Below, in pieces: positions 1,183 to 33,613 of a stretch of DNA of 64,000 bases (positions are counted from its first letter, which is position 1; every line of letters begins with the position of its first letter). The stretch lies in the IMG/VR virus record IMGVR_UViG_3300025789_000018. One strand, given 5' to 3'. A program made the translations under genes and the position numbers. The notes beneath the pieces are model-generated. The model ran no database searches. It worked only from the letters and a program-made list of their open reading frames with translations, and was not told the origin of the DNA. This DNA is from a virus (lineage: Duplodnaviria > Caudoviricetes).

Positions 1183-1959
1183 TTTACGGATTGTCCAAGC
1201 GTCTGTAGCTAACTTGGGATCTTCTAGATATCTTGCTGGAATCCAGAAGTGGCCATCGTCGCCCCAGTCTGTTCCCCAAGAGTTGCGTACTTCATAGTAT
1301 GGTTCTACTTTACCATCTGCACCATGCGCACTAGGATCAAAGTTATTATCATAACCAATGACTGTGACAGCATGACCACCTAAGCATTGTGTCCAGTATT
1401 CTGGCATTGCAATAACACCAGATTGTGCAACTTCTGGCGATTCAAAGTCTTGATAGATTTGAATGCCAATAATGAATGGGAATCCATCAGATAGACATTG
1501 ACGATATTCGATACCACTACCATCTGCTAGAGATGAGTAAGCAGAAATCTTGTTCTCCAATGCTTCTTGAACTTCGATTGCAGGAGGAGCAACAGCGAAC
1601 TTTGAGATATCGTATGGCCAATCTTTTTCTAGACCAACACCTTGTAGATTTAGAACCTTGATTGCATCGCGAAGAAATGCACCAGAGTCATGCTCGACTG
1701 TGCCTTCTAGAACTCGCTCTTGATAATAAAGTGCTAGTCTTGAATATGGACCACCATCATGAACAAAGGTAAAGGCTGCTGTGGCTGCTTGTGCAGAACA
1801 AGAACCTAGTTCGCCTTGATCGTATGGCTTTTCTTTAAACTTGCTTCTAAGACTGACCTTATCTGGTAAAGGTGCAGCTTTAGGAGCATGAATCGCACTA
1901 AACTTCCAGTCTCTAGGATCATATGGGTCTTTAATGTAACCATATTTTCTGGTAGGCAT
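1180..1959 (-). CDS. Papain-like cysteine protease (peptidase C1A family)
   Basis: QGELGSCSA (oxyanion Gln, catalytic Cys), GGHAV (His) and VRNSWGTDWGDDG (Asn) motifs in canonical order. Confidence 0.92.
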   Translation of the reverse strand: MPTRKYGYIKDPYDPRDWKFSAIHAPKAAPLPDKVSLRSKFKEKPYDQGELGSCSAQAATAAFTFVHDGGPYSRLALYYQERVLEGTVEHDSGAFLRDAIKVLNLQGVGLEKDWPYDISKFAVAPPAIEVQEALENKISAYSSLADGSGIEYRQCLSDGFPFIIGIQIYQDFESPEVAQSGVIAMPEYWTQCLGGHAVTVIGYDNNFDPSAHGADGKVEPYYEVRNSWGTDWGDDGHFWIPARYLEDPKLATDAWTIRK

Positions 1960-1973
1960 GTGCTTTCCTTTTC

Positions 1974-4205
1974 TTATGACATCGCTTCCTGTGCGATGAT
2001 GTGAACACCAACGTTTGCTGCGTTAGATCCTGTTGTAATAGCAACAGTCAACTGGTCAGTTAGGTTACCAGCAACAGTGTTATAGAGTGGGAAGAAATAT
2101 GATAGATCGATTTCTTGTAGACCAGAACCACCAGCAGGAGCAGTGAATGCGAACACAACTTCACCACCTGTCATCGCTGTAGCCGAAACGTCTCTCATTG
2201 CAAACGAGTAGTTTGACCCAAGACCGATAGAGTTTACAGTAGCACCATTAGCGAATGTAATACCATTTGCCTGTGTGATTGTACCAGCAGTTGTGTTTGA
2301 TGTTGTGGTGTTTGCTAGTGTGTAGAACTGCGCACCAGTCAATAGAATAGGGCTTGAAGTTGTTGACGTAATCAACTCAACAATACACTGAGCATCGGCT
2401 GATAGATACATCTTCTTTGGTAGTAGCTGACCACGATTGATTAGACCAATCTGGAAAGGAGTACCAGTCATGGATGCAGTATTTGCAATAGGTGCACCAG
2501 TGATAATATTGCCATATGTAATGACTGTTGAGTTACTTGAAGTGATACGTCCAGTTAACCCTGTGTTACTTGTTCCTTGTGCAGGAAAGTAAATGTGGCG
2601 ACCAGTAAATGTATTGTTAGTATACGTGTTGACTTGTGCACCTGTTTGTGTTACAGTAGCAGGAGCAGATAGTGTATATGCTGTTGTGTTCACAAAAGAT
2701 GTAACTGTAGTAGCAGGAATGCCCGTTAAGTTTGACGTAACTGTTTGCCCAACATAAACGTTTGCTGTACTACCAGAAGTGATAACAACAATATTATTAC
2801 CAGAAGTATAGTTACCGATCAATGATGATGTTTGAACACCATCAAATGAGGTATTTGCTGTTGTAAAATAAAGTGTTGAGTTTGTGCTTGTCGAGTTGAT
2901 AGCATTAAATGTTGAGTTACCACTCATTTCGATAGTTGCCATTGGGCGACTTGCCATAGTAAGAACAGGATAACGAGCAGTAGATCCAGAAATCGTTCTC
3001 TTAGGTGCAGTGTTTGCCATACCATATGGATATGTAAAGCCGCGTTGGTCATCTTGTCCGCCTTCAATAACAACAGAAACACCATAGTGAAACATATCGT
3101 TCTGTGAAGCAGTTACGCCAATATTGCGCTGTTCATAACGAACTGGAAGGTTACCAGTACGTGACCATGGGCTTTCTTGTGCTGGAATAACAATATTTCC
3201 AGTTTGTGGATTTGTCGTATTGATCGGACCTTTATTGCCGAAACCGATGTAATGTAGAACAATCCATTCACCATTGATGACTACACCCCAGCGTACCATA
3301 CCAGCCCCGTACCAAGTATATTCTTGCCAGATCATCTGAATACGTGACCAATCAAGAGAGTTGATTGTAGCTTGATCACCATTCCATGCTGGAAGAGGAA
3401 CGCGATAGTCTGTTGGAACACCTGCGTTGGTGCCGTGATTTACTACACCTGCTTGATTGACATCTGAGCGAACGACACAAAACATACCAAATGGATTGGC
3501 TTGTGTTGTGAACTGATAGCTGGTACCAGTTGTCGTTGAAGTTGTTGGTGAACTGATAGCAACTGCGGTACTATTGATGATATTTTGCACAACTGTTGTA
3601 TATGGAATGTTTAATGTTCCATTAGTATCTTTAACAGTAACACTTGGATTGATGTTTGGTCCAGTTACTGGCATACCAATGTACATAGTAGCAGTGCTTG
3701 ACAAACCAGTAATAAGATTTGAGTTTGCTGTACTGTTACCGGTAAATGCCGTAATAGAGTTTGCATACACAGGATCACCTTGTTCCAGGAACACACCATT
3801 GCCATCATCGAAGAAACCTACGCGCTGGCGCTGATTTGTCTGTGCTGCACCAAAGTTCATAGCAGTTGACATGATCATAGTCTTGCCTGGCTGATAACGA
3901 TGATATGGGCGTGTCTGGCGAATAGTTACATCACCACTTGCTGTGCCGAGACGCATACGAACACCACCAGAACCTGGTAGTTGCTGAATAGAAGAGTTGC
4001 CTGAAGGACTAATAACATAGTTTTCCCAGCGCATTGGCTGCGCGCCATATTCAAAGTCTGCTTCGTAAATATTCTGGTGACGCGAAGTGCGAACGCGCCC
4101 TAGATTGTCCATCGAACCAAAAGTTGGTTTAGACGAGATACCTACTGGCTGAATTACAGAGTTGTTTGCTGGTGTTTTAAATGTCATGAAAATCTCCTGG
4201 TACAC
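1974..4205 (-). CDS. Large putative virion structural protein with two copies of the 65-aa N/T/S-rich module
   Basis: DNLGRVRTS..RVGFFDDGNGVFLE..WYGAGMVRWG core resembles a conserved large-myovirus structural family. Has its own late promoter and lies downstream of gp23. Confidence 0.55.
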   Translation of the reverse strand: MYQEIFMTFKTPANNSVIQPVGISSKPTFGSMDNLGRVRTSRHQNIYEADFEYGAQPMRWENYVISPSGNSSIQQLPGSGGVRMRLGTASGDVTIRQTRPYHRYQPGKTMIMSTAMNFGAAQTNQRQRVGFFDDGNGVFLEQGDPVYANSITAFTGNSTANSNLITGLSSTATMYIGMPVTGPNINPSVTVKDTNGTLNIPYTTVVQNIINSTAVAISSPTTSTTTGTSYQFTTQANPFGMFCVVRSDVNQAGVVNHGTNAGVPTDYRVPLPAWNGDQATINSLDWSRIQMIWQEYTWYGAGMVRWGVVINGEWIVLHYIGFGNKGPINTTNPQTGNIVIPAQESPWSRTGNLPVRYEQRNIGVTASQNDMFHYGVSVVIEGGQDDQRGFTYPYGMANTAPKRTISGSTARYPVLTMASRPMATIEMSGNSTFNAINSTSTNSTLYFTTANTSFDGVQTSSLIGNYTSGNNIVVITSGSTANVYVGQTVTSNLTGIPATTVTSFVNTTAYTLSAPATVTQTGAQVNTYTNNTFTGRHIYFPAQGTSNTGLTGRITSSNSTVITYGNIITGAPIANTASMTGTPFQIGLINRGQLLPKKMYLSADAQCIVELITSTTSSPILLTGAQFYTLANTTTSNTTAGTITQANGITFANGATVNSIGLGSNYSFAMRDVSATAMTGGEVVFAFTAPAGGSGLQEIDLSYFFPLYNTVAGNLTDQLTVAITTGSNAANVGVHIIAQEAMS

Positions 4206-4225
4206 GCATAAGTCATTTGATACTG

Positions 4226-4233
4226 TATTTATA
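4226..4233 (-). promoter_or_regulatory. T4-type late promoter TATAAATA
   Basis: Exact consensus, intergenic upstream of 1974..4205. Confidence 0.8.
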
Positions 4234-4251
4234 TCAACAGATCATTAGACA

Positions 4252-4285
4252 TAAAGAAAGGGGGAGAACCTTTCGATTCTCCCCC
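4252..4285 (-). terminator. Intrinsic terminator after gp23/homing endonuclease
   Basis: GGGGGAGAA/TTCTCCCCC stem followed on the minus strand by TTTCTTTAT. Confidence 0.8.
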
Positions 4286-4319
4286 GAAGGTTTGTAATAT
4301 ATTTTATGTTATAGATTAC

Positions 4320-4913
4320 TTATGTAGATTCGACTTTTGATTTTCTAATCTGTTTGTATCCTGGTGTATTGCCACGTTGCTTTCTGCCTTCAGCGTATGC
4401 AAGTTTCAAAGATTCAGATTTCTTTCTCTTGGTTTCTTCTGATTGCTTTTTGCCTTTTTGTGCATTGCTCATATTAACAAGCATCTCTGGTGTTTTGATG
4501 TATGATCGAGAACGTTTAGTTTCTTTGATTTTATCTTTTACTTCCTGTGGTCTAGGTCCGTTTGATTTGCCTGTTTTGGCTTCTGATATCTTTTGACCCA
4601 CTGTTTTTATTTTATCTTCCTCTGTTGTCCAATGTCCGTTTAAATGTTTTGTTAAGTTGTAATACTTTTTGCCAAGTTGATCGTCTGGTATCATCGTTAG
4701 ATATTCATGTTCTATGTTTAACAAATCTTGACGATTTGTATATACTCTGATGATGATTCTGCGTTTGAAGTCCCTCTTTCTTCTATTATAGGAGTTTCTC
4801 ATCCACGTAGAACTACAGATGTAGCTGTCATCTTCTTTGCCCCAATGAGAACCAATGTAATATCTTTTGTGCTTACGATCAAACCAAATGTAAACGAAAC
4901 CATATTTCTGCAT
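4320..4913 (-). mobile_element. Free-standing GIY-YIG (Seg-like) homing endonuclease with NUMOD3-type repeats
   Basis: GFVYIW..RYYIGSH..Y..SS N-terminus. Basic C-terminus KISEAKTG / GKKQSEETKRKKSESLK. Confidence 0.8.
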
Positions 4914-18464: not shown

Positions 18465-19183
18465 TAAATCACATCTCCGAATGGATTGGTTATACTAAAG
18501 TCCACAAACGTATTTGCCAAAGCTACAAACTCTTCATTCTGTGTTGATGGATCGATTTCATCTAGAACAAAAGTTTCGTTGACAATATCATAACCAGCTT
18601 CGGTAATAAGATCGTAACTTGCTTCGGTGAGATACCAGAAGTTACTGTCTGCCACTGAATAGTTCTGTTGGATCGAATCGATGTTTGCGATGCCAGTGTT
18701 GAACTGTTCCGAATCGTAGTTGAACTTCTCTAGCTGCAACTCAAAGTATTGTAGCGATCCAGTCTGGTAGAAGGATCTTTCATGTTCAACGAACTTGATT
18801 TCAAAAATACCAGTTGTGAATGGAAAGTAAACAAGATCACCTTCTTGTGGGCGAATCAAGTTGTATATGCTACCAATGTCTTGTGCGAACCTGCGACGAC
18901 TCACCGATAGTGTAAGTTTGTCTGCTACGTTTAGACCGAACTTGCTGAGTAGATCGCCTTCACCTTGGAAACCTTCATAATCATTAATATACATTTCAAG
19001 TGGAATAGCCACGTTAAATGAAGACGTTGGTGCTTCATCAAATAACTTATCAATATAGTTTGTTGTTCTCGGAAGATAATAGCAATCGATACCAAAAATC
19101 TGAATCATTTCGTCTGCTAGATTCTGTAGCAGATTCTGCTCAGGATTGTAATCAGAGTTTCGAAAGAAAAACGATGTCGGCAC
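18464..19183 (-). CDS. gp14: Neck protein (GTG start)
   Basis: EQNL.QNL.DE.IQIFG.DCYYLPR, GEGDLLSKFGL, RPQEGDLVYFP, FEIKFVEHE..FYQ.G. Confidence 0.95.
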   Translation of the reverse strand: MPTSFFFRNSDYNPEQNLLQNLADEMIQIFGIDCYYLPRTTNYIDKLFDEAPTSSFNVAIPLEMYINDYEGFQGEGDLLSKFGLNVADKLTLSVSRRRFAQDIGSIYNLIRPQEGDLVYFPFTTGIFEIKFVEHERSFYQTGSLQYFELQLEKFNYDSEQFNTGIANIDSIQQNYSVADSNFWYLTEASYDLITEAGYDIVNETFVLDEIDPSTQNEEFVALANTFVDFSITNPFGDVI

Positions 19184-19189
19184 TTTTGA

Positions 19190-19250
19190 TGATCCTAAAG
19201 ATTGTTTTATGTTCTATTTATAGAATATCTATTGACAATCTTTAGGATCA
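19190..19250. promoter_or_regulatory. Perfect 15-bp inverted repeat enclosing the gp14 late promoter; one arm covers the gp14 RBS
   Basis: TGATCCTAAAGATTG (19190-19204) / CAATCTTTAGGATCA (19236-19250). TATAAATA on the minus strand at 19215-19222 in the loop. Confidence 0.8.
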
Positions 19251-19259
19251 GTGTATACT
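19232..19259 (+). promoter_or_regulatory. Sigma70-like promoter pointing antisense into the homing endonuclease
   Basis: TTGACA-16 nt-TATACT. Confidence 0.5.
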
Positions 19260-19283
19260 CAGTAATGTACTGTAAGATATAGG

Positions 19284-19988
19284 TTAGGTAGTATATCCAG
19301 CATCTATTAGTGTATTCCACTTTTCAGTGTTTGGTTTAGCCATCTTTCTGATGCCATCTTTGTACAATGCTCGTCTGCCACTCATAGAATCTGATTGTTT
19401 CTTTTTTTGATCTTCACTCTTCGGAACATCTTTCATTCTATTAGAAACCGAAACTCTATGATTTTCAGATTTATTATACTCAATCATTCTTTCTCTGGAT
19501 GCCTGTATATCCTCTTGTGTTTGAGGAGGAAGTATTCTTTTTGACATCCCTATATTAAACTTTTCAATATATGAAGGATTGGATTTCTGTTCTAAAGCTT
19601 TTCTTCTTATCTTTTCTTTATGTTCTTTTGTCTTAGCAATGCCTTTGCCCGTTGTGTTCTTTTGTATTTTGGTAAGAACTCCCTTTTCATAATCTATAAA
19701 CTTTGCTGTGTTTCCACCATCTAATCCGTTCTCTTCTCTTAAGTTTGCCCATAGATCAGATTCAACTATATTATTTTCTTTTGAGAACTTTAAAGCAAAC
19801 TCTGTCGCTTCATGTTGATTTTTGAAATGAAACGTTTCTAGCGTAATATGCTTTGCATTATGTTTGCTTAAGTGTGATTTCCAATAAACACCAGAACCGC
19901 CATATGCATATGGATTATCTTGCTCTGTTTTGCCAAAATACTTTAAATCACAGTGAGAACACTGTTTGACGTATAGATAAATATTCAT
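19284..19988 (-). mobile_element. Free-standing GIY-YIG-like (Seg-type) homing endonuclease; likely start at 19988 (MNIYLYVK)
   Basis: IYLYVKQC.HC.LKYFGKT...NPY.YGGSGVYW..HL.KH, WANLREENGLDGG. AGGAG RBS precedes 19988. Confidence 0.8.
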
Positions 19989-20054
19989 GCTGATTCTCCT
20001 GCATAGAGTTAGTGTGGGTGGATGCTCTAACATCGTGACCCACAACTACTTATA
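19989..20054 (-). promoter_or_regulatory. Structured leader (late promoter, stem-loop, CTAAC, AGGAG, ATCAGC), copy 1
   Basis: TATAAGTA GTT GTGGGT..ACCCAC A CTAAC N7 AGGAG AATCAGC ATG. Homologous copy at 56105-56177. Confidence 0.65.
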
Positions 20055-20088
20055 CAAATAGAAATCTTCAATCATATCACAGACGGGT

Positions 20089-20829
20089 TTATCCGATCAT
20101 GTCCGCGCAAGGCAATGACCACGTGGTATACATCTCTTGTTCTAGCCTATCAATCTCTTTTTGAGCATCATCTCTGATCTTATCACCGTTAAACTTGTTT
20201 CCACCTGGTAGATTGATACCTGTATACTTTGTTAAGTTGTCGCCCCATTGACGCTTGACTAGTGCAGCAGCATATTGTGTCAACCAACGATCTGACCATA
20301 CTCCACCATATACGGTTGGATCAATGATCTGATATGCTTCAACGATTAAGAAGCTTCCTGGTTGTACAATGTCCCAAGCCATATCTAGATATAGAATGTT
20401 GTTGTAACGATTGAAGCGAAGTGGCTGTTGACCGACTAGAAGCTGTTCAAGAAACTGAATATGCTGCATAGCAAGATAGTATGGTACCATCGTTGTAGCA
20501 GTCAAGTCATATAGATCGTTCAATGTGATCTGATAACGAATGTTGAACAGATTATTTGATGACAACGATTCACCAACAGGGAATAGATTGACTGCACCAA
20601 TGATGTTCGATGGTAGAGTGATATACTGATTTTCAATATCAGTTGGAGTTACCTGATACTTGTAATAGGTCTTTTCAGAACCTTCGAAGTGATAGTCCCA
20701 GAAGAATGTCAAAGCTTCATCAATACGATCAGAAACTTGATCGTCATCAACGTTGATATCAATAACAGGCGCACCTAGACGGCGAAGAATGTAATATTTA
20801 AATTCATCCCTATTAGTAGGTATTGACAT
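20089..20829 (-). CDS. gp13: Neck protein
   Basis: Y.LRRLGAPVI.INVDDDQ..DRI.EAL.FF.DYHFEG, W...Y..AL.KRQWG.NL.KY.G..LPGG...NG. Confidence 0.97.
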   Translation of the reverse strand: MSIPTNRDEFKYYILRRLGAPVIDINVDDDQVSDRIDEALTFFWDYHFEGSEKTYYKYQVTPTDIENQYITLPSNIIGAVNLFPVGESLSSNNLFNIRYQITLNDLYDLTATTMVPYYLAMQHIQFLEQLLVGQQPLRFNRYNNILYLDMAWDIVQPGSFLIVEAYQIIDPTVYGGVWSDRWLTQYAAALVKRQWGDNLTKYTGINLPGGNKFNGDKIRDDAQKEIDRLEQEMYTTWSLPCADMIG

Positions 20830-21430
20830 TTTCTATATTCCTCTTTGTCTTATACTTCTTGTTGTTTTCACCAACTTCTGGTCTAATCTTTCCGTGCATA
20901 GGATTATTAACGCCAGACATTCTTTCAGACATTTTACGTTTTCTTTCCTCTGACCATTTTGTTCCTTTCATAGGATTGTTGGTCAGTGCTTTTTGTCTTC
21001 TTTTTTCTATTATGTCCGGTCTTTTATTGAACTCTACAGTATCTGGTCTTTTTCTTCCATACATAGGATTCTTTTCACCTACGTGTTGTCCTGTTCTGGT
21101 TTTACTTATATTGCTTTTAACTTCTTCTGTAAATATGACAGCACGACCGTCGTGTTTGTTTAACCACACATTATTGGTTTCTCTAATTTTCAATCTTCTT
21201 AAAACTTTATGTTCCCATTCTATAGAATCTTTAGCATCTTTGAACGTTTTTCTTATCTCGAACTCAAAAGAATCGTCGCCATATTCTTTTCTTAGTGATT
21301 TAACGACATTAGAAGATGTGAAATACTTTGTCCAGAAATCGTCAGGATGACATCCTTCTTTATATCTTACACCATAATAGAACATATTTGTCGGTATATG
21401 ATGTAGTAAGTAGGTATATGGTGTTGTCAT
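20813..21430 (-). mobile_element. GIY-YIG-like homing endonuclease with NUMOD3 repeats, inserted in the 5' end of gene 13
   Basis: PYTYLL....T..FYYGVRY..GCHPDDFW.KYFTSS, GEKNPMYGRK, NNPMHGK. Paralog of 32882..33583. Confidence 0.8.
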
Positions 21431-21498
21431 ATAACAGGAGCGCCAAGTCTTCTGAGTAGATAGTATTTGAACTGTTCTCTTGAGTTTGGAACTGCCAT
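21427..21498 (-). pseudogene. Orphaned original 5' end of gene 13 (23-codon mini-ORF)
   Basis: Translates MAVPNSREQFKYYLLRRLGAPVI* versus gp13 MSIPTNRDEFKYYILRRLGAPVIDI. The stop overlaps the endonuclease ATG (ATGA). Confidence 0.85.
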
Positions 21499-21521
21499 TG
21501 CTTCTTCCTATTGTTTATTGT

Positions 21522-21529
21522 TATTTATG
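21522..21529 (-). promoter_or_regulatory. Late promoter variant CATAAATA upstream of the gene 13 region
   Basis: One mismatch to consensus, followed by AGGAAG RBS and the mini-ORF ATG. Confidence 0.55.
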
Positions 21530-21844
21530 TTATAACCATTGACCAAGAAGATCATCAACATGTGGCATAGGATTACGATATAAGTTCAATATGACTGTAT
21601 TGTCTTCTAGTGCTTTGATTTCGTGATGTTGTTTATCATCGGTGTAATATAAAAAATCTCCAGTATTGGCTTTATATAACCACTCTTTGTCTGGACCATA
21701 TGCTTCTATACTGCCGTTGATAACAACTGTATCATGATAGTTCTTTGGTCCATGTTGATGCATCTCTAATACATCTTCAGCTTTTGCGAATACCATTTTT
21801 AGCCAATATACATTTTCATGTTTTTGGAATTGAGATTTGATCAT
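21530..21844 (-). CDS. Small cupin-like protein downstream of fibre/adhesin genes
   Basis: H.H....HDTVVINGSI and HHEIKALEDNTVILN beta-barrel pattern. Confidence 0.55.
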   Translation of the reverse strand: MIKSQFQKHENVYWLKMVFAKAEDVLEMHQHGPKNYHDTVVINGSIEAYGPDKEWLYKANTGDFLYYTDDKQHHEIKALEDNTVILNLYRNPMPHVDDLLGQWL

Positions 21845-22482
21845 TATGAGTATGTAAAAGTAACTTGTCCAGCAGCACCAGCACCGCCTACGTTTCCGTT
21901 AGGATTACTAAAGTTACCGCCCGCACCACCACCACCTGGCGGATTACCAGACGATCCTTTTGTAGTCTGAGTAGCGCCACCGTTAGGAGATGCCGCGCCA
22001 TTTGATGTTTGTCCACCACCACCGCCGCCTGATGTATTAACGTCTCCTCCACTAGCTGTTCCTCCTGTGCCCTGAAATGCAGTACCAGATCCAGCAGCAC
22101 CACCAGTGCCACCGTTTGCAGTCAGAGAGAAAGAAGTAGTAAATGTATTCTGAGAAGATGTTGTCGTTCCTCCTGTGCCTCCAGCTGCGGAACTGCCGGC
22201 GCTACCAGCAGTTCCAACTGCATAGTTTAACGTTTGACCCCAGTTTGAAGAAGTTAGAGATATAGTTTTTTTTGAGTAAGCACCTGCTCCGCCGCCACCG
22301 CCAGGTTGAGTTATACAAATATTGCTACCATGACCACCACCACCGCCAGCACCCCAAGTTTCAATAACTACTTGTGATGCTCCAGTAGGAATAGAATCAG
22401 TTCCACTGCCTGATGTGTATGTTCTTGTTACTGGCGGAAAGTATTTCTTCGAACCAAGAAACGCCATCTGAATACCACTCAT
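21844..22482 (-). CDS. Glycine-rich tail-tip adhesin-like protein (gp38-like), paralog 1; probable start MSGIQMAF at 22482
   Basis: VIETWGAGGGGG.. and repeated GxGG motifs, ending GAAGQVTFTYS. Directly follows fibre 22484..25939. Confidence 0.6.
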   Translation of the reverse strand: MSGIQMAFLGSKKYFPPVTRTYTSGSGTDSIPTGASQVVIETWGAGGGGGHGSNICITQPGGGGGAGAYSKKTISLTSSNWGQTLNYAVGTAGSAGSSAAGGTGGTTTSSQNTFTTSFSLTANGGTGGAAGSGTAFQGTGGTASGGDVNTSGGGGGGQTSNGAASPNGGATQTTKGSSGNPPGGGGAGGNFSNPNGNVGGAGAAGQVTFTYS

Positions 22483-22483
22483 A

Positions 22484-25400
22484 TTATGATACTCCTGCTC
22501 CACCAACAAACCATCTATCAACAGCAACACGAATGCAAGTTGCAGTTGCACCAGCAACTAGAGTTCTGCTTCCTGTTGTTGTAGTTCCCGCTAACTGGAT
22601 TGTAACGTTACCAGCACCAGCAATCGTAAGTGTGGCAGTATTGCCATTGATTATGCTGATAGCAGCACCATTCGCCCAAGCAACTGTGGCGTTATTGGCA
22701 ATAGTGTATGTCAAAGTTCCTGTATTGGCTGCATTGAAGATATGACCACCAGAATCTGATGCTGCTGTTGTATAGCTTGTATTCTGAATATTCTGTGGAA
22801 TATCTCTGTAGCCAACTGCATATGCACCAGCACCATAGTTGACTGTTGTGCCTCCACCAGTGAATGCTTGGTTACCAGAGATTGTGTAGTTGCCTGAAGT
22901 GTTGACATAGCTTGCAGCCGCAACACCACCGAGATTTGTTGCATTGTTTGATGTCAACGTAGCTACATTCGCAGCAAGTGTTGAGTTTAGTTGATAAGAA
23001 GCTGCTGAGACACCACCGAGATTTGTTGCATTGTTTGCAGTGCCAGCAGTAAATGATAGTCCTGTACCAGTTAGACCTGAACCAGAACCAGTAAATGTAG
23101 TTGCCGTTACTGTGGTAAATGTAGCAGAGTTTGCGGTAGTACCACCAATAGCAGCAGGAGAAGCCCAAGAATATCCTGCAAACAAAGTAGCATTCGCCGC
23201 TGTACCACTAATACCTAAGCCGTTTGTTGAGTTTGCATAAGCTTGGCTTGTATTCGCGACAGCATTAGCAACAGCATTTGTGAATGCGGTAGCTGCAATA
23301 GTTGCTGCATATGATGTTGCGTTTGTGTAAGCTGCCGAAGCATTGCTTGTGATAGCTGTATTGACAGTTCCTAATGAAACACCACCAAGCTGTACTGCAT
23401 TTACACTCGTTACACTAGCGCCATTACCAGAAATGTTATTAGCATAAAGATTCCAGACAAAGCTTGTGTTGCCTAGATTTAGATTATTCGCAGCAGGAAT
23501 AAACGCAACGTTTGATTGCCATGCAGGAATAGCTGAGTTGTAAATCAAGTTAGCAAATGTGCCAACAACAATACCAGCATTGTTTGATGTAATGGCATTC
23601 GTTGCACTGTTCGCAAGTACAAGATTTAAATCATTTGTTGTGATAACAGTTGAGTTGATGAATGTTGTAGTACCAGCAAGTGTTAGATTTCCAGTGACAG
23701 TCAAGTTACCAGAAACAGTAGCACCACCCGAGACGTTTAGACTTGCTGCATTTAGTGTGGTAAAGTTTGCTGTGTTTGCTGTAGTTGTACCAATAGAACC
23801 TGGAGCAGCCCAAGCAGCACTATTGAGCGTGAAACCATTGGTCGAGTTTGCCCATGAGCCAGGATTTGTTGTTGCAATATATGCTGTATTGACTGAAACA
23901 CCAGTGGCTGATACTGCAATACTGTTATCCGCATTTGCAACATAGACTGTGCCCGATGATGTGATAGTACCACCATTCAAGCCATTGGCAAAAGCAATAG
24001 ATGTGACTGTTCCTGGATTTGTTGTTACTGTACCCCAATAAACACCACTGATCGAGTTCGACATTAGAACTTTGCCAGAAGCACCAGACAATGCACCGTT
24101 TGCTAGAACAATCGAGGTTGTGCTGAATACAAAACCATTTGCAATAGTATTGCCTGTGAATGTTGTATTGCCTGCAATCGTGAAAGCGGCTGTTGTGTTT
24201 ACGATGTTTGTTGGAAGCTGTGCATATGGCAAAGTACCAGATGACATGTTTGATGCATTGGTATAATAACTAGCTGGCTGACCATTGAAGTTGGTTGAGT
24301 TATTTGCAGTAAGTGTTGCTACGTTTGTAGATAGACCAGCAGTTGTCTGATAGTTTCCTAGATTTGCTGATAGTTGTGCGTTAGATACAACATTAGCGGC
24401 TGATACAGAACCTACAAAGTTTGCGCTATTTGATGTGCCAGTAAATGTTGTTGAGTTGATCGTAGCATTGACAGATGCGTTGCCGATAACGATTGTGTTT
24501 GTGTTTACAGCAACACTATTCGCTGCTGTTCCAACATAAACATTTGACGACGCATTAACAAAGCCAGCATTTAGATTGCCAGAGACAGTTGTTGCTATTA
24601 CGTTTGTGACGTAAATATTTGACCAAACATAACCAGTATTACCGAGTGTGTATGTGACGTTTGCTCCAGGAATGAAACTACCATTAGCAACGACTGTGTT
24701 TGAGTAAGTAACTGCACCAGTAACGTATAGATTGCCTGATACTGTAACATTAGCAGAAAAGGTAGAGTTGCCTGTGACGTTCAATAGACCACCGACTGTG
24801 ACATTAGCAGTAGCATTTACCTGAGCAGTATTGACTACTATAGCAGCAACGTTAGCTGTAACTGTTGTTGCCGAAACTGTTGTCGCAATAACATTCGCTG
24901 TGACTGTGGTACCAACCAAGTTAGCATTGACTGTTGTTGCATTCAACGTTGTGGCATTTACAGTTGTTGTATTGACGTTGCCTACGTTGGCGAGACCAGT
25001 TACTGTGATTGTCCCTGGAGTAAGAGTAGTAACGACAGATGTATTGCCAAGAACAACTGATGTTGTATTTGCTGAGAAACCATTTGTAGTACCGATTGTG
25101 CCAATAAGCAATGCGCCTGTAGCATTTGCAACAGCTACACCAGAAGAGTTGATTACAACATTACCAGCAGCAACAACACTAGCATTTGACGCATAGACTG
25201 TTGTGGTAGAAACGTTTGCCGTTGCATTAACAATCGATGTGACCACCGCTGTTGAGTTGATTACTGAGTTGGCAGTTGAGTTGCCAATAACAACGTTTGA
25301 TGCGGTTAGAACACCACTTGTGTTTGTTGTTAGATTATAAAGTGCTTCTACAACTGAGTTGCCATATCCATAAACTGTGCTATTACCAACATTGGCAGAA

Positions 25401-32881: not shown

Positions 32882-33583
32882 TTATCCTTTTACCGATATT
32901 TTATTATAGTTGTGTTTGCATTTGTCACCGTGCCATCTAGTCATATTTGGCGCATCCACCATTACGTGACAATATACACATTCTTCTTTAGGACGAACGT
33001 AACCCATACTATATGCAGATTTTCTATTTTTCAATTTCAATTTTTGTTCTTCTGTTCTAGTTTTACCCAGATTTTTGCCAATCATAGAAATTGATCTTTT
33101 ATGTTTATGCTCTTCTGATTGATTTTTGCCAAAATTAGGATTATTACTTCCTTTTAGAGATTCGCTTATTCTTTTTTTAGATTCGGATGTATGTAATTTG
33201 TCTAAACGAGGATGCTTTCTGCCGCCGGCGTCAACATTCCAATTTTGATTTCTCATCCAATTATCATCTCCGAAATGACGACTACTCGATGGATCAATTG
33301 ATATGTTGTCTGTTTTATTTAGAAAGTTGGCGCGATTGACAACATTCATTCTTTTCAATACTTTATTTTCCCATTTTCGAGCAGAATCAATATCATCGAA
33401 TGTTTTTCTTATTTGTATCACATTTGGTGCACCATTTTCTTGACAAAATGATGATACGTGTTTTGATGATGTGAAATATGTTTTCCACAATTCGCCAACG
33501 TTGCAACCTCTAGCATATCTTACACCATAATACCAGACATCAAGTTCTTTCCAACCTATCAGATATGTATACGCAACAACCAT
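32882..33583 (-). mobile_element. GIY-YIG-like homing endonuclease with NUMOD3 repeats
   Basis: AYTYLIGW....WYYGVRYA.GC...ELWKTYFTSSKHV, KGSNNPNFGK.QSEEHK, terminal C..C..RWHGDKCK. Confidence 0.8.
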
Positions 33584-33605: not shown

Positions 33606-33613
33606 TATTTATA
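33606..33613 (-). promoter_or_regulatory. Late promoter for endonuclease 32882..33583
   Basis: Exact TATAAATA directly after the upstream stop codon. Confidence 0.75.

What the first reader, a model, noticed from the sequence alone, without database searches (positions are those of the whole stretch)
20760..21498. Homing endonuclease inserted inside gene 13 brings a recoded replacement 5' end
Seen: the promoter and RBS lead to a 23-codon ORF MAVPNSREQFKYYLLRRLGAPVI that stops at the endonuclease ATG (ATGA). The endonuclease 3' end overlaps a second start, MSIPTNRDEFKYYILRRLGAPVI, that continues into full gp13. The copies are near-identical in protein but heavily recoded (AGA AGA CTT GGC GCT versus CGC CGT CTA GGT GCG). 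Inference: an intron-free way to invade an essential gene. The element destroys its target, repairs the gene with a cleavage-immune start and gains translational coupling from the orphaned leader.
Basis: partly seen in the sequence, partly recalled or inferred. Interest (0 to 1): 0.75.

Follow-up and report, generated by a model that had tools for sequence, protein, structure and literature searches.

The report
Homing endonuclease cassette replacing gene-13 start
A selfish DNA-cutting-enzyme gene sits 64 bases into the essential neck gene 13 of an uncultured lake T4-like phage. It keeps the gene whole by bringing a foreign copy of the gene's first ~100 bases and leaves the original 23-codon start behind as a leader that probably drives its own translation. 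This is a clear phage example of a trick described so far mainly in fungal mitochondria and yeast.

Summary
A g13 late-promoter-like box and SD lead to a 23-codon ORF (21498..21427). Its TGA overlaps the ATG of a 205-aa SegE-like GIY-YIG/NUMOD3 endonuclease gene (21430..20813). The last 17 nt of that gene overlap a second start, which gives full-length gp13 (20829..20089).

The decisive evidence is three HEG-less relatives (L011-L013), which carry an uninterrupted g13.
- Their promoter and first 64 nt are 100% identical to the window's upstream copy.
- The window's functional g13 differs from theirs at 36 of the first 99 nt, but at only 4 of the next 601 (Fisher p 3e-29).

So the upstream copy is the native start. 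The mobile unit is the endonuclease gene plus ~100 nt of a foreign g13 5' end. The same left junction occurs in several upstream contexts, with two different patchy conversion tracts.

No intron signature was found. The "recoding" is no greater than in natural g13 orthologues of similar protein identity.

Cleavage site, immunity and translational coupling remain inferred.

The architecture mirrors fungal mitochondrial mORF gene hybrids and yeast WHO elements, but at the 5' end. This scan has already noted the same design in other phages.

Verdict: real, first reading supported; a new variant of a known kind.

The parts
21522..21529 (-). T4-type late-promoter-like box CATAAATA of gene 13. It now drives the leader, the endonuclease gene and g13.
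   Evidence: Sequence. An ATAAATA box stands at the same distance upstream of g13 in most relatives. TATAAATA occurs 17 times in the window against 3.5 expected.
21501..21509 (-). Native g13 Shine-Dalgarno (AGGAAGAAG).
   Evidence: Sequence. Identical in HEG-less L011-L013.
21427..21498 (-). Orphaned native g13 start: a 23-codon leader ORF ending in TGA, which overlaps the endonuclease ATG (ATGA).
   Evidence: ORF list. Nt 1-64 are 100% identical to uninterrupted g13 of L011-L013.
21431..21435 (-). Left junction. Identity to the HEG-less allele ends after ...GCTCCTGT (nt 64 of g13, window 21435).
   Evidence: the blastn alignment with L011 stops at window 21431. The junction is identical in all HEG+ contigs.
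20813..21430 (-). SegE-like GIY-YIG + NUMOD3 homing endonuclease gene, 205 aa.
   Evidence: Pfam NUMOD3 36.2 bits; SegE_GIY-YIG E 1.2e-4. PHROG 314 'homing endonuclease' E 6.6e-14. Invariant Y7, Y18-Y19-G20, R60, E73, N91 in the family alignment. Best fold match is the I-TevI catalytic domain, prob 0.99, TM 0.68.
20839..20845 (-). Replacement SD (AAGAGGA) for g13, inside the 3' end of the endonuclease ORF.
   Evidence: Sequence.
20731..20829 (-). Imported foreign g13 5' segment (nt 1-99 of the functional gene), which moved together with the endonuclease gene.
   Evidence: 36/99 differences from L011 against 4/601 in nt 100-700. Two HEG+ haplotypes carry different patchy tracts.
20089..20829 (-). 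Functional chimeric gene 13 (neck protein / head-tail adaptor Ad2), 246 aa.
   Evidence: PHROG 211 E 3.8e-37. tblastn to annotated neck proteins; Stenotrophomonas phage DLP6 60%.

Best explanation
This is an intron-less homing cassette in an uncultured freshwater T4-like phage. The mobile unit is a SegE-like GIY-YIG endonuclease gene joined to about 100 nt of a foreign gene-13 5' end. That segment carries its own ribosome-binding site inside the endonuclease gene's last codons. The unit sits after nt 64 of the resident gene 13.

Shown:
- The upstream 23 codons are the resident gene's original start, now cut off.
- The functional g13 is a chimera of a foreign first ~100 nt and a native remainder.
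- Close relatives lack the insert at exactly this point.

Inferred:
- During co-infection the endonuclease cuts uninterrupted g13 near codons 20-30, a strongly conserved block.
- The break is repaired from the cassette-bearing genome. The orphan leader and promoter serve as the left homology arm and g13 as the right arm, so the endonuclease gene and a variable stretch of the foreign 5' end are copied in.
- The carrier is immune. The leader copy is truncated at the site, and the functional copy differs at 36 of 99 positions.
- The endonuclease has no SD of its own. It is translated by termination-reinitiation (ATGA) behind the well-initiated leader, on the g13 late transcript.
- gp13 is then made from the imported SD and start.
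For: - HEG-less alleles L011-L013 have continuous g13. Their 70 nt upstream and first 64 nt are 100% identical to the window's leader region. The flanking 1464 nt are 99.2% identical.
- Differences from L011 in the functional g13 are 36/99 in nt 1-99 and 4/601 in nt 100-700, Fisher p 2.7e-29.
- Polarity: the leader-type start (MAVP/MAIP...) occurs in all 30 sampled HEG-less g13 loci, and L011's nt 93-99 state recurs in the outgroup L014. No sampled locus has the MSIPTNRDEF type.
- The same left junction occurs behind at least three different upstream sequences. There are two differently patched conversion tracts...PVIDINV in the window, L006 and L065, and ...PVINIDV in L007-L010, L066 and L067.
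- The endonuclease ORF is intact in every contig (98.5-100% aa). It has GIY-YIG invariant residues, an I-TevI-like fold and a NUMOD3 motif.
- No SD-like motif lies in the 20 nt before its ATG, and there is no significant RNA structure there.
- No Rfam family is matched, so no intron.
- The insertion site lies in one of the most conserved blocks of gp13: aa 15-40 score 0.88-0.92 against a gene mean of 0.76.
- A related SegE-like gene in L072 is flanked by a full gp2 gene and an orphan copy of its 3' half.
- The same logic is established for yeast WHO elements (PMC7282813) and fungal mitochondrial mORFs (PMC3630166).
Against: - No cleavage data exist. GIY-YIG Seg enzymes can cut at a distance from their insertion site, so the true target may lie elsewhere in or near g13.
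- No donor genome with the MSIPTNRDEF-type g13 was found. The next endonuclease homologue is at most 67% identical over half its length. The original assembly of the cassette is therefore unknown.
- The g13 promoter and start is also duplicated in G001 around an inserted glycine-rich gene that has no endonuclease. Non-homing rearrangements therefore also duplicate this region.
- Only 23 codons are involved, so the 'immunity by recoding' idea cannot be separated from plain orthologue divergence.
Confidence: 0.8

Rival explanations
1. Passive scar of module shuffling. The endonuclease gene and foreign g13 start arrived once by illegitimate or promoter-mediated recombination. The endonuclease does not target g13, and the arrangement simply persists by descent.
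For: G001 carries a further partial copy of the g13 promoter and first 29 nt around an inserted glycine-rich gene with no endonuclease. No donor was found and no cleavage data exist.
Against: An identical junction occurs behind different upstream sequences, with two different patchy conversion tracts. The ORF is intact with conserved catalytic residues in all contigs. The insert sits in a highly conserved coding block, as homing sites usually do. Two further endonuclease genes occupy variable sites in the same neck module.
Confidence: 0.13
2. The HEG-less allele is derived. L011-type genomes lost the cassette by recombination between the two copies, so the MSIPTNRDEF start would be the ancestral one.
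For: Direct repeats flanking an insert can mediate deletion. G001-type tracts show native-like patches.
Against: All 30 sampled HEG-less g13 loci, down to 37% identity, start with the leader type. Outgroup L014 shares L011's states at nt 93-99, where both HEG+ haplotypes differ. Deletion between copies that are 61% identical would leave a chimeric 5' end, yet L011 nt 1-64 are purely leader-type.
Confidence: 0.03
3. The insert is removed at the RNA or translation level (group I intron splicing or ribosomal bypass), so that gp13 begins with the upstream start.
For: Joining leader codon 23 to codon 24 of the functional copy would be in frame.
Against: No Rfam family, and so no intron model, matches at E<=1 over 19000-22600. 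Because of the repeat, the last base of the would-be 5' exon and of the would-be intron are the same base, so the U/G rule of group I introns cannot be met. The downstream copy has a complete SD, ATG and 23 redundant codons. A 669-nt bypass has no precedent (T4 gene 60 skips 50 nt; own knowledge).
Confidence: 0.02
4. In-situ tandem duplication of the g13 start, followed by divergence, with later insertion of the endonuclease gene between the copies.
For: The two copies share the rare KYY motif, which is absent from other sampled g13.
Against: The functional copy differs from the HEG-less allele at 28/69 nt, while flanks on both sides are 99% identical to it. That is incompatible with divergence after a recent local duplication.
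Confidence: 0.02

Closest known systems
Yeast WHO elements at FBA1 (Coughlan et al. 2020, eLife, PMC7282813)
   Same: The endonuclease gene travels with a resistance-conferring replacement end of the target gene. The displaced native end persists as an orphan fragment on the far side and serves as a homology arm. The host gene becomes a chimera with a sharp identity break at the site.
   Different: WHO replaces the 3' end, whereas here the 5' end is replaced together with its SD and start. The enzyme is a GIY-YIG Seg-type protein, not an intein-like LAGLIDADG protein. The host is a phage, not a nuclear genome. Here the orphan fragment is still translated and appears to drive endonuclease translation.
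Fungal mitochondrial mobile ORFs (mORFs) creating gene hybrids (Allomyces atp6; Glomus atp6/atp9/cox2/nad3; PMC3630166)
   Same: An endonuclease ORF, including GIY-YIG types, is inserted in a gene with a foreign duplicate of the gene end. The native duplicate matches close relatives and the inserted one is divergent: 91-98% against 64-81% there, 100% against 59% here.
   Different: Those replace C-terminal ends, often with the ORF fused in frame. Here the N-terminal end is replaced, and the endonuclease is a separate, out-of-frame, ATGA-coupled ORF.
T4 SegF/SegG/SegB 'intronless homing' of free-standing GIY-YIG endonucleases (reviewed in PMC2988022)
   Same: Free-standing GIY-YIG gene in a T4-like phage. 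It shows presence/absence polymorphism between relatives, co-conversion of flanking sequence, and late expression signals.
   Different: Classical seg genes lie between genes. This one lies inside a coding sequence and compensates with a replacement gene start. The 2010 review contains no mention of such duplications.
Genes-in-pieces: Aeh1 nrdA-a/mobE/nrdA-b and T4 39/mobA/60 (PMC2988022)
   Same: An endonuclease gene is inserted within a phage coding sequence without an intron or intein. ATGA/UAAUGA-type coupling to the upstream ORF is proposed for mobE.
   Different: In those cases the host protein is split into two polypeptides that reassemble. Here gp13 is made whole from the new start, and the upstream piece is a redundant 23-codon remnant.

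Membership tests
GIY-YIG homing endonuclease, SegE-like with NUMOD3 | GIY-YIG motif and catalytic Arg/Glu/Asn | tested here: met
   Y7, Y18-Y19-G20, R60, E73 and N91 are invariant in an alignment of 23 family members.
GIY-YIG homing endonuclease, SegE-like with NUMOD3 | Pfam SegE_GIY-YIG (PF19835) above the curated cut-off | tested here: inconclusive
   22.7 bits against a cut-off of 25, E 1.2e-4. Many homologues carry PF19835 in precomputed annotation. PHROG 314 'homing endonuclease' E 6.6e-14.
GIY-YIG homing endonuclease, SegE-like with NUMOD3 | GIY-YIG alpha/beta fold | tested here: met
   In the AF2 model, residues 1-90 have pLDDT 80-90 except for a dip to 59-68 over residues 21-40. The top PDB matches are the I-TevI catalytic domain 1MK0/1LN0: prob 0.99, TM 0.68, rmsd 2.6 A over 100 columns. 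The E-value is only 0.07.
GIY-YIG homing endonuclease, SegE-like with NUMOD3 | NUMOD3 DNA-binding motif | tested here: met
   PF07460, 36.2 bits against a cut-off of 20.4.
GIY-YIG homing endonuclease, SegE-like with NUMOD3 | Site-specific cleavage of the endonuclease-free allele | not testable with these tools
   Needs enzyme and substrate.
Free-standing endonuclease, intronless homing (Seg type) | Presence/absence polymorphism at one site among close relatives | tested here: met
   L006-L010 and L065-L067 carry it. L011-L013 (flanks 99% identical) lack it.
Free-standing endonuclease, intronless homing (Seg type) | Co-conversion tract of flanking DNA | tested here: met
   36/99 against 4/601 differences. 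Two patchy tract variants exist.
Free-standing endonuclease, intronless homing (Seg type) | Biased inheritance in mixed infection | not testable with these tools
   Uncultured phage.
End-replacing homing elements (WHO, mitochondrial mORF hybrids) | Endonuclease gene linked to a foreign copy of the host gene's end that is read as part of the host gene | tested here: met
   The imported nt 1-99 are continuous and in frame with native g13.
End-replacing homing elements (WHO, mitochondrial mORF hybrids) | Displaced native end kept as an orphan fragment that matches element-free relatives | tested here: met
   Leader nt 1-64 are 100% identical to L011-L013.
End-replacing homing elements (WHO, mitochondrial mORF hybrids) | The replaced end is the 3' end of the gene | tested here: not met
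   Here the 5' end with SD and start is replaced. It works like these elements but is a mirror-image variant with an unrelated nuclease.
Group I intron with encoded endonuclease | Ribozyme core and U/G splice-site rule | tested here: not met
   No Rfam match at E<=1. The repeat geometry forbids exon-end U together with intron-end G (sequence).
Genes-in-pieces (Aeh1 nrdA/mobE) | Host protein made as two complementary polypeptides | tested here: not met
   The downstream ORF encodes all 246 aa of gp13. The leader duplicates residues 1-23 and does not complement them.

The most novel reading that the evidence does not exclude
Phage free-standing homing endonucleases may commonly exist as three-part elements. 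The parts are an orphan native gene start that is still translated, the nuclease gene, and a resistant replacement start. The orphan start would be a selected component, serving both as the left homology arm and as the translation driver of an SD-less nuclease. That would make it a 5'-end mirror image of yeast WHO elements and a general intron-free and intein-free route into essential genes. The same nuclease family also shows the 3'-end version (L072 gp2). Unchecked notes from this scan report the same logic for RNA genes in this very genome.
Probability: 0.45. Interest if true: 0.7.

Novelty: new variant of a known kind. Interest (0 to 1): 0.55.

Why it matters
It gives a clean natural before-and-after pair showing how a homing endonuclease can enter the coding sequence of an essential structural gene. 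The empty and occupied alleles are 99% identical in their flanks. No intron, intein or split protein is needed, because the element carries a replacement gene start.

It also shows how conserved phage structural genes become mosaics a few dozen bases at a time. The window's g13 has a foreign 5' end, and its 3' end is also divergent next to a second endonuclease-like gene.

The case suggests a testable rule for expression of SD-less nuclease genes, namely coupling to the orphaned leader.

For annotation, such short leader ORFs and 'duplicated starts' mark homing cassettes and should not be mistaken for frameshifts or pseudogenes.

Tried and rejected
- Megablast of the region against GenBank phages: no match.
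- The window's own assembly is not held. The nearest record, G001, was used instead.
- Sequence and profile searches of the endonuclease against PDB: nothing. Only the fold search found I-TevI.
- Rfam at E<=1 over 19000-22600: nothing.
- Donor search for the cassette (viral contigs, metagenome contigs, 5.8 billion proteins): only the >=99% cluster, then at most 67% over half the length. No genome with MSIPTNRDEF-type g13 was found.
- Sequencing runs: no RNA holder listed.
- Contigs of four DNA runs carry the occupied allele in one piece. No joint corresponding to the empty allele was seen, and a divergent g13 bubble in X16 belongs to another phage.
- RNA fold around the endonuclease start is not better than shuffles (z 0.64). 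The fold around the new g13 SD is only weakly unusual (z -1.8).
- A survey of ATGA at the starts of family members was uninformative, because the second codon often begins with A.
- The two-piece gp13 matches in cyanophages are a longer gp13, not an insertion.
- Flank-to-flank duplication scan of 22 homologous endonuclease loci: only L072 (gp2 3' half) and L060 (a fragment of another endonuclease gene) scored. The window's other two endonuclease genes show no duplication.
- Literature searches for a phage description of this architecture found none. The library is incomplete.

Full report
**What is there.**
The feature lies on the minus strand. Reading 5' to 3':
- a T4-type late-promoter-like box CATAAATA (21529..21522) and the SD AGGAAGAAG;
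- a 23-codon ORF MAVPNSREQFKYYLLRRLGAPVI (21498..21427);
- a 205-aa ORF (21430..20813) whose ATG overlaps the leader's TGA as ATGA;
- a 246-aa ORF (20829..20089) whose start lies 17 nt before that ORF's stop. It follows its own SD AAGAGGA and begins MSIPTNRDEFKYYILRRLGAPVI.

The two 23-codon copies share 16/23 residues and 42/69 nt. tblastn gives E 2e-7 within the window.

**Identity of the genes.**
- The 246-aa protein is the T4-type neck protein gp13 (head-tail adaptor Ad2). PHROG 211 scores E 3.8e-37, and it is 60% identical to the annotated neck protein of Stenotrophomonas phage DLP6.
- gp14 (PF11649) and a gp15-like ORF follow it.
- The 205-aa protein is a SegE-like GIY-YIG endonuclease.
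  - NUMOD3 scores 36.2 bits. SegE_GIY-YIG scores E 1.2e-4, just under the curated cut-off. PHROG 314 'homing endonuclease' scores E 6.6e-14.
  - Y7, Y18-Y19-G20, R60, E73 and N91 are invariant across 23 relatives.
  - The predicted N-terminal domain best matches the I-TevI catalytic domain, with prob 0.99 and TM 0.68.
- The phage is uncultured and comes from freshwater metagenomes.

**The decisive comparison.**
A search of viral contigs with gp13 gave 38 loci at 37-100% identity. Five of them (>=98% gp13) carry leader, endonuclease gene and g13 as in the window. L011-L013, at 95% gp13 identity, carry neither the endonuclease gene nor the duplication.

In L011-L013, g13 is continuous.
- The 70 nt upstream and the first 64 coding nt are 100% identical to the window's upstream copy. 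Identity ends after ...GCTCCTGT.
- blastn aligns window 22950..21431 to L011 at 99.1%, then resumes inside g13.

Against L011, the window's functional g13 differs as follows:

| g13 nt | differences |
|---|---|
| 1-99 | 36 of 99 |
| 100-700 | 4 of 601 |

Fisher's exact test gives p 2.7e-29.

Hence the upstream copy is the resident gene's own start. The endonuclease gene arrived together with about 100 nt of a foreign g13 5' end.

**Polarity.**
All 30 sampled HEG-less g13 loci, down to 37% identity, start with the leader type (MAVP/MAIP...) behind an ATAAATA box. None has the MSIPTNRDEF type. The outgroup L014 shares L011's states at nt 93-99, where both occupied haplotypes differ. The empty allele is therefore ancestral and is not a deletion derivative.

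**Signs of repeated movement.**
- The left junction is identical in all occupied contigs.
- The sequence upstream of the leader differs. It is a 104-aa ORF in the window and L006, a glycine-rich gene in G001, L007, L066 and L067, and a third sequence in L065.
- The imported tract exists in two patchy versions. The window, L006 and L065 are foreign through nt ~99. L007-L010 revert to the native sequence at nt 58-83 and are foreign again at nt 84-99.

Such variable tracts are what double-strand-break repair with heteroduplex correction produces. This is inference from established homing biology (PMC2988022).

**Is the copy 'recoded'?**
The imported 69 nt are 59% identical to the native allele, at 70% protein identity, and 13 of 15 synonymous positions are changed. 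Natural g13 orthologues of 70-78% protein identity show 55-71% nt identity and 6/15 to 16/16 synonymous changes. The segment therefore looks like an ordinary diverged orthologue. Its nearest sampled relative is only 72-75% identical, so the donor is unsampled. It still provides many mismatches to any target sequence that spans the site.

**Not an intron.**
No Rfam family matches at E<=1. The repeat geometry cannot give an exon-end U together with an intron-end G. The downstream copy has a complete SD, a start and 23 redundant codons.

**Expression (inferred).**
No SD-like motif precedes the endonuclease ATG, and no significant structure is predicted there. The ATGA overlap with a leader that keeps g13's own late promoter and SD suggests termination-reinitiation. 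The same mechanism is proposed for T4 mobE behind nrdA (PMC2988022). The paralogous endonuclease gene at 33583..32882 has its own TATAAATA box instead.

**Target (inferred).**
The insertion point lies within LRRLGAPVI(D/N)I(N/D)VDDD. This is one of the most conserved blocks of gp13, scoring 0.88-0.92 against a gene mean of 0.76. That is typical of homing sites.

**Generality.**
In L072, a marine T4-like contig, a SegE-like gene lies between a complete gp2 DNA-end-protector gene and an orphan copy of its last ~100 codons. The copies are about 80% identical in nt. This is the 3'-end version of the same design.

The design equals that of yeast WHO elements (PMC7282813) and fungal mitochondrial mORF gene hybrids (PMC3630166), which replace 3' ends. 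The 2010 review of T4-family mobile elements does not mention duplications of this kind.

Earlier notes of this scan describe the same 5'-end design in other phages: gp10 and ninB of P22-like phages, a DNA polymerase gene, and gene 46 of T2/T6-like phages. They also describe replacement parts for a tRNA and the tmRNA in this same genome. These are unchecked leads, not evidence.

**Verdict.**
Insertion, boundaries, the foreign 5' end and polarity are shown. Cleavage, immunity and coupling are inferred. It is a new variant of a known kind: a 5'-end, phage, GIY-YIG version of end-replacing homing elements.

Noticed in passing
window 19284..20045 (-) and g13 3' end 20090..20122: A second endonuclease-like gene (253 aa) lies between g13 and g14. 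It has a GIY-YIG-like motif by eye but no Pfam or PHROG hit. The last ~35 nt of g13 next to it differ from L011 at 13/41 positions, against 4/601 in the gene core (p 8e-14). Only genomes carrying this gene (window, L006) show this. It looks like a second conversion tract, which would make g13 a three-part mosaic.
   Followed up: partly
L005 (G001) 4139..4798; L011 4593..5321 (-); L011 3738..3781: The neck module is a hot spot with three variably occupied sites. G001 has a different 219-aa endonuclease gene between g13 and g14. L011 and L007 have a reverse-strand 242-aa one at the g14/g15 junction, where the window has none. L011 has only a 43-nt g13/g14 spacer.
   Followed up: partly
L005 (G001) 1689..1878: There is a third, partial copy of the g13 late promoter, SD and first 29 nt. 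It is followed by a tail-fibre-like C-terminal fragment (...LIEAIKELKAEIDELKGYK*), which is ATGA-coupled to an extra glycine-rich gene (1878..2654). No endonuclease gene is present. This is either an older displaced fragment or a separate rearrangement.
   Followed up: partly
L072 2062..3840 (LFIK01000465.1): A SegE-like endonuclease gene (2468..3244, +) lies between a full gp2 DNA-end-protector gene (3247..3840, -) and an orphan 107-aa copy of its C-terminal half (2062..2385, -). This is an independent 3'-end version of the replacement design.
   Followed up: partly
window 32882..33583 (-), promoter box 33606..33613: A paralogous SegE-like endonuclease gene (35% identity) has its own TATAAATA box and no flanking duplication. 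TATAAATA is five-fold enriched in the window (17 against 3.5 expected) and lies mostly just upstream of minus-strand genes.
   Followed up: partly
window 20770..20900 (-): In the predicted RNA fold, the imported g13 SD pairs with nt ~40-48 of the imported coding segment (z -1.8). This might make g13 initiation depend on ribosomes that are finishing the endonuclease ORF.
   Followed up: no
L053, L059, L075, L080, L085, L089 (about 30 nt before the endonuclease ATG): Several distant family members share a conserved leader (GGACTCC..C.TCCCA...TCTATT.T ATG) without an SD. It may be the structured leader that another note of this scan reports. It is absent from the g13 cassette.
   Followed up: no
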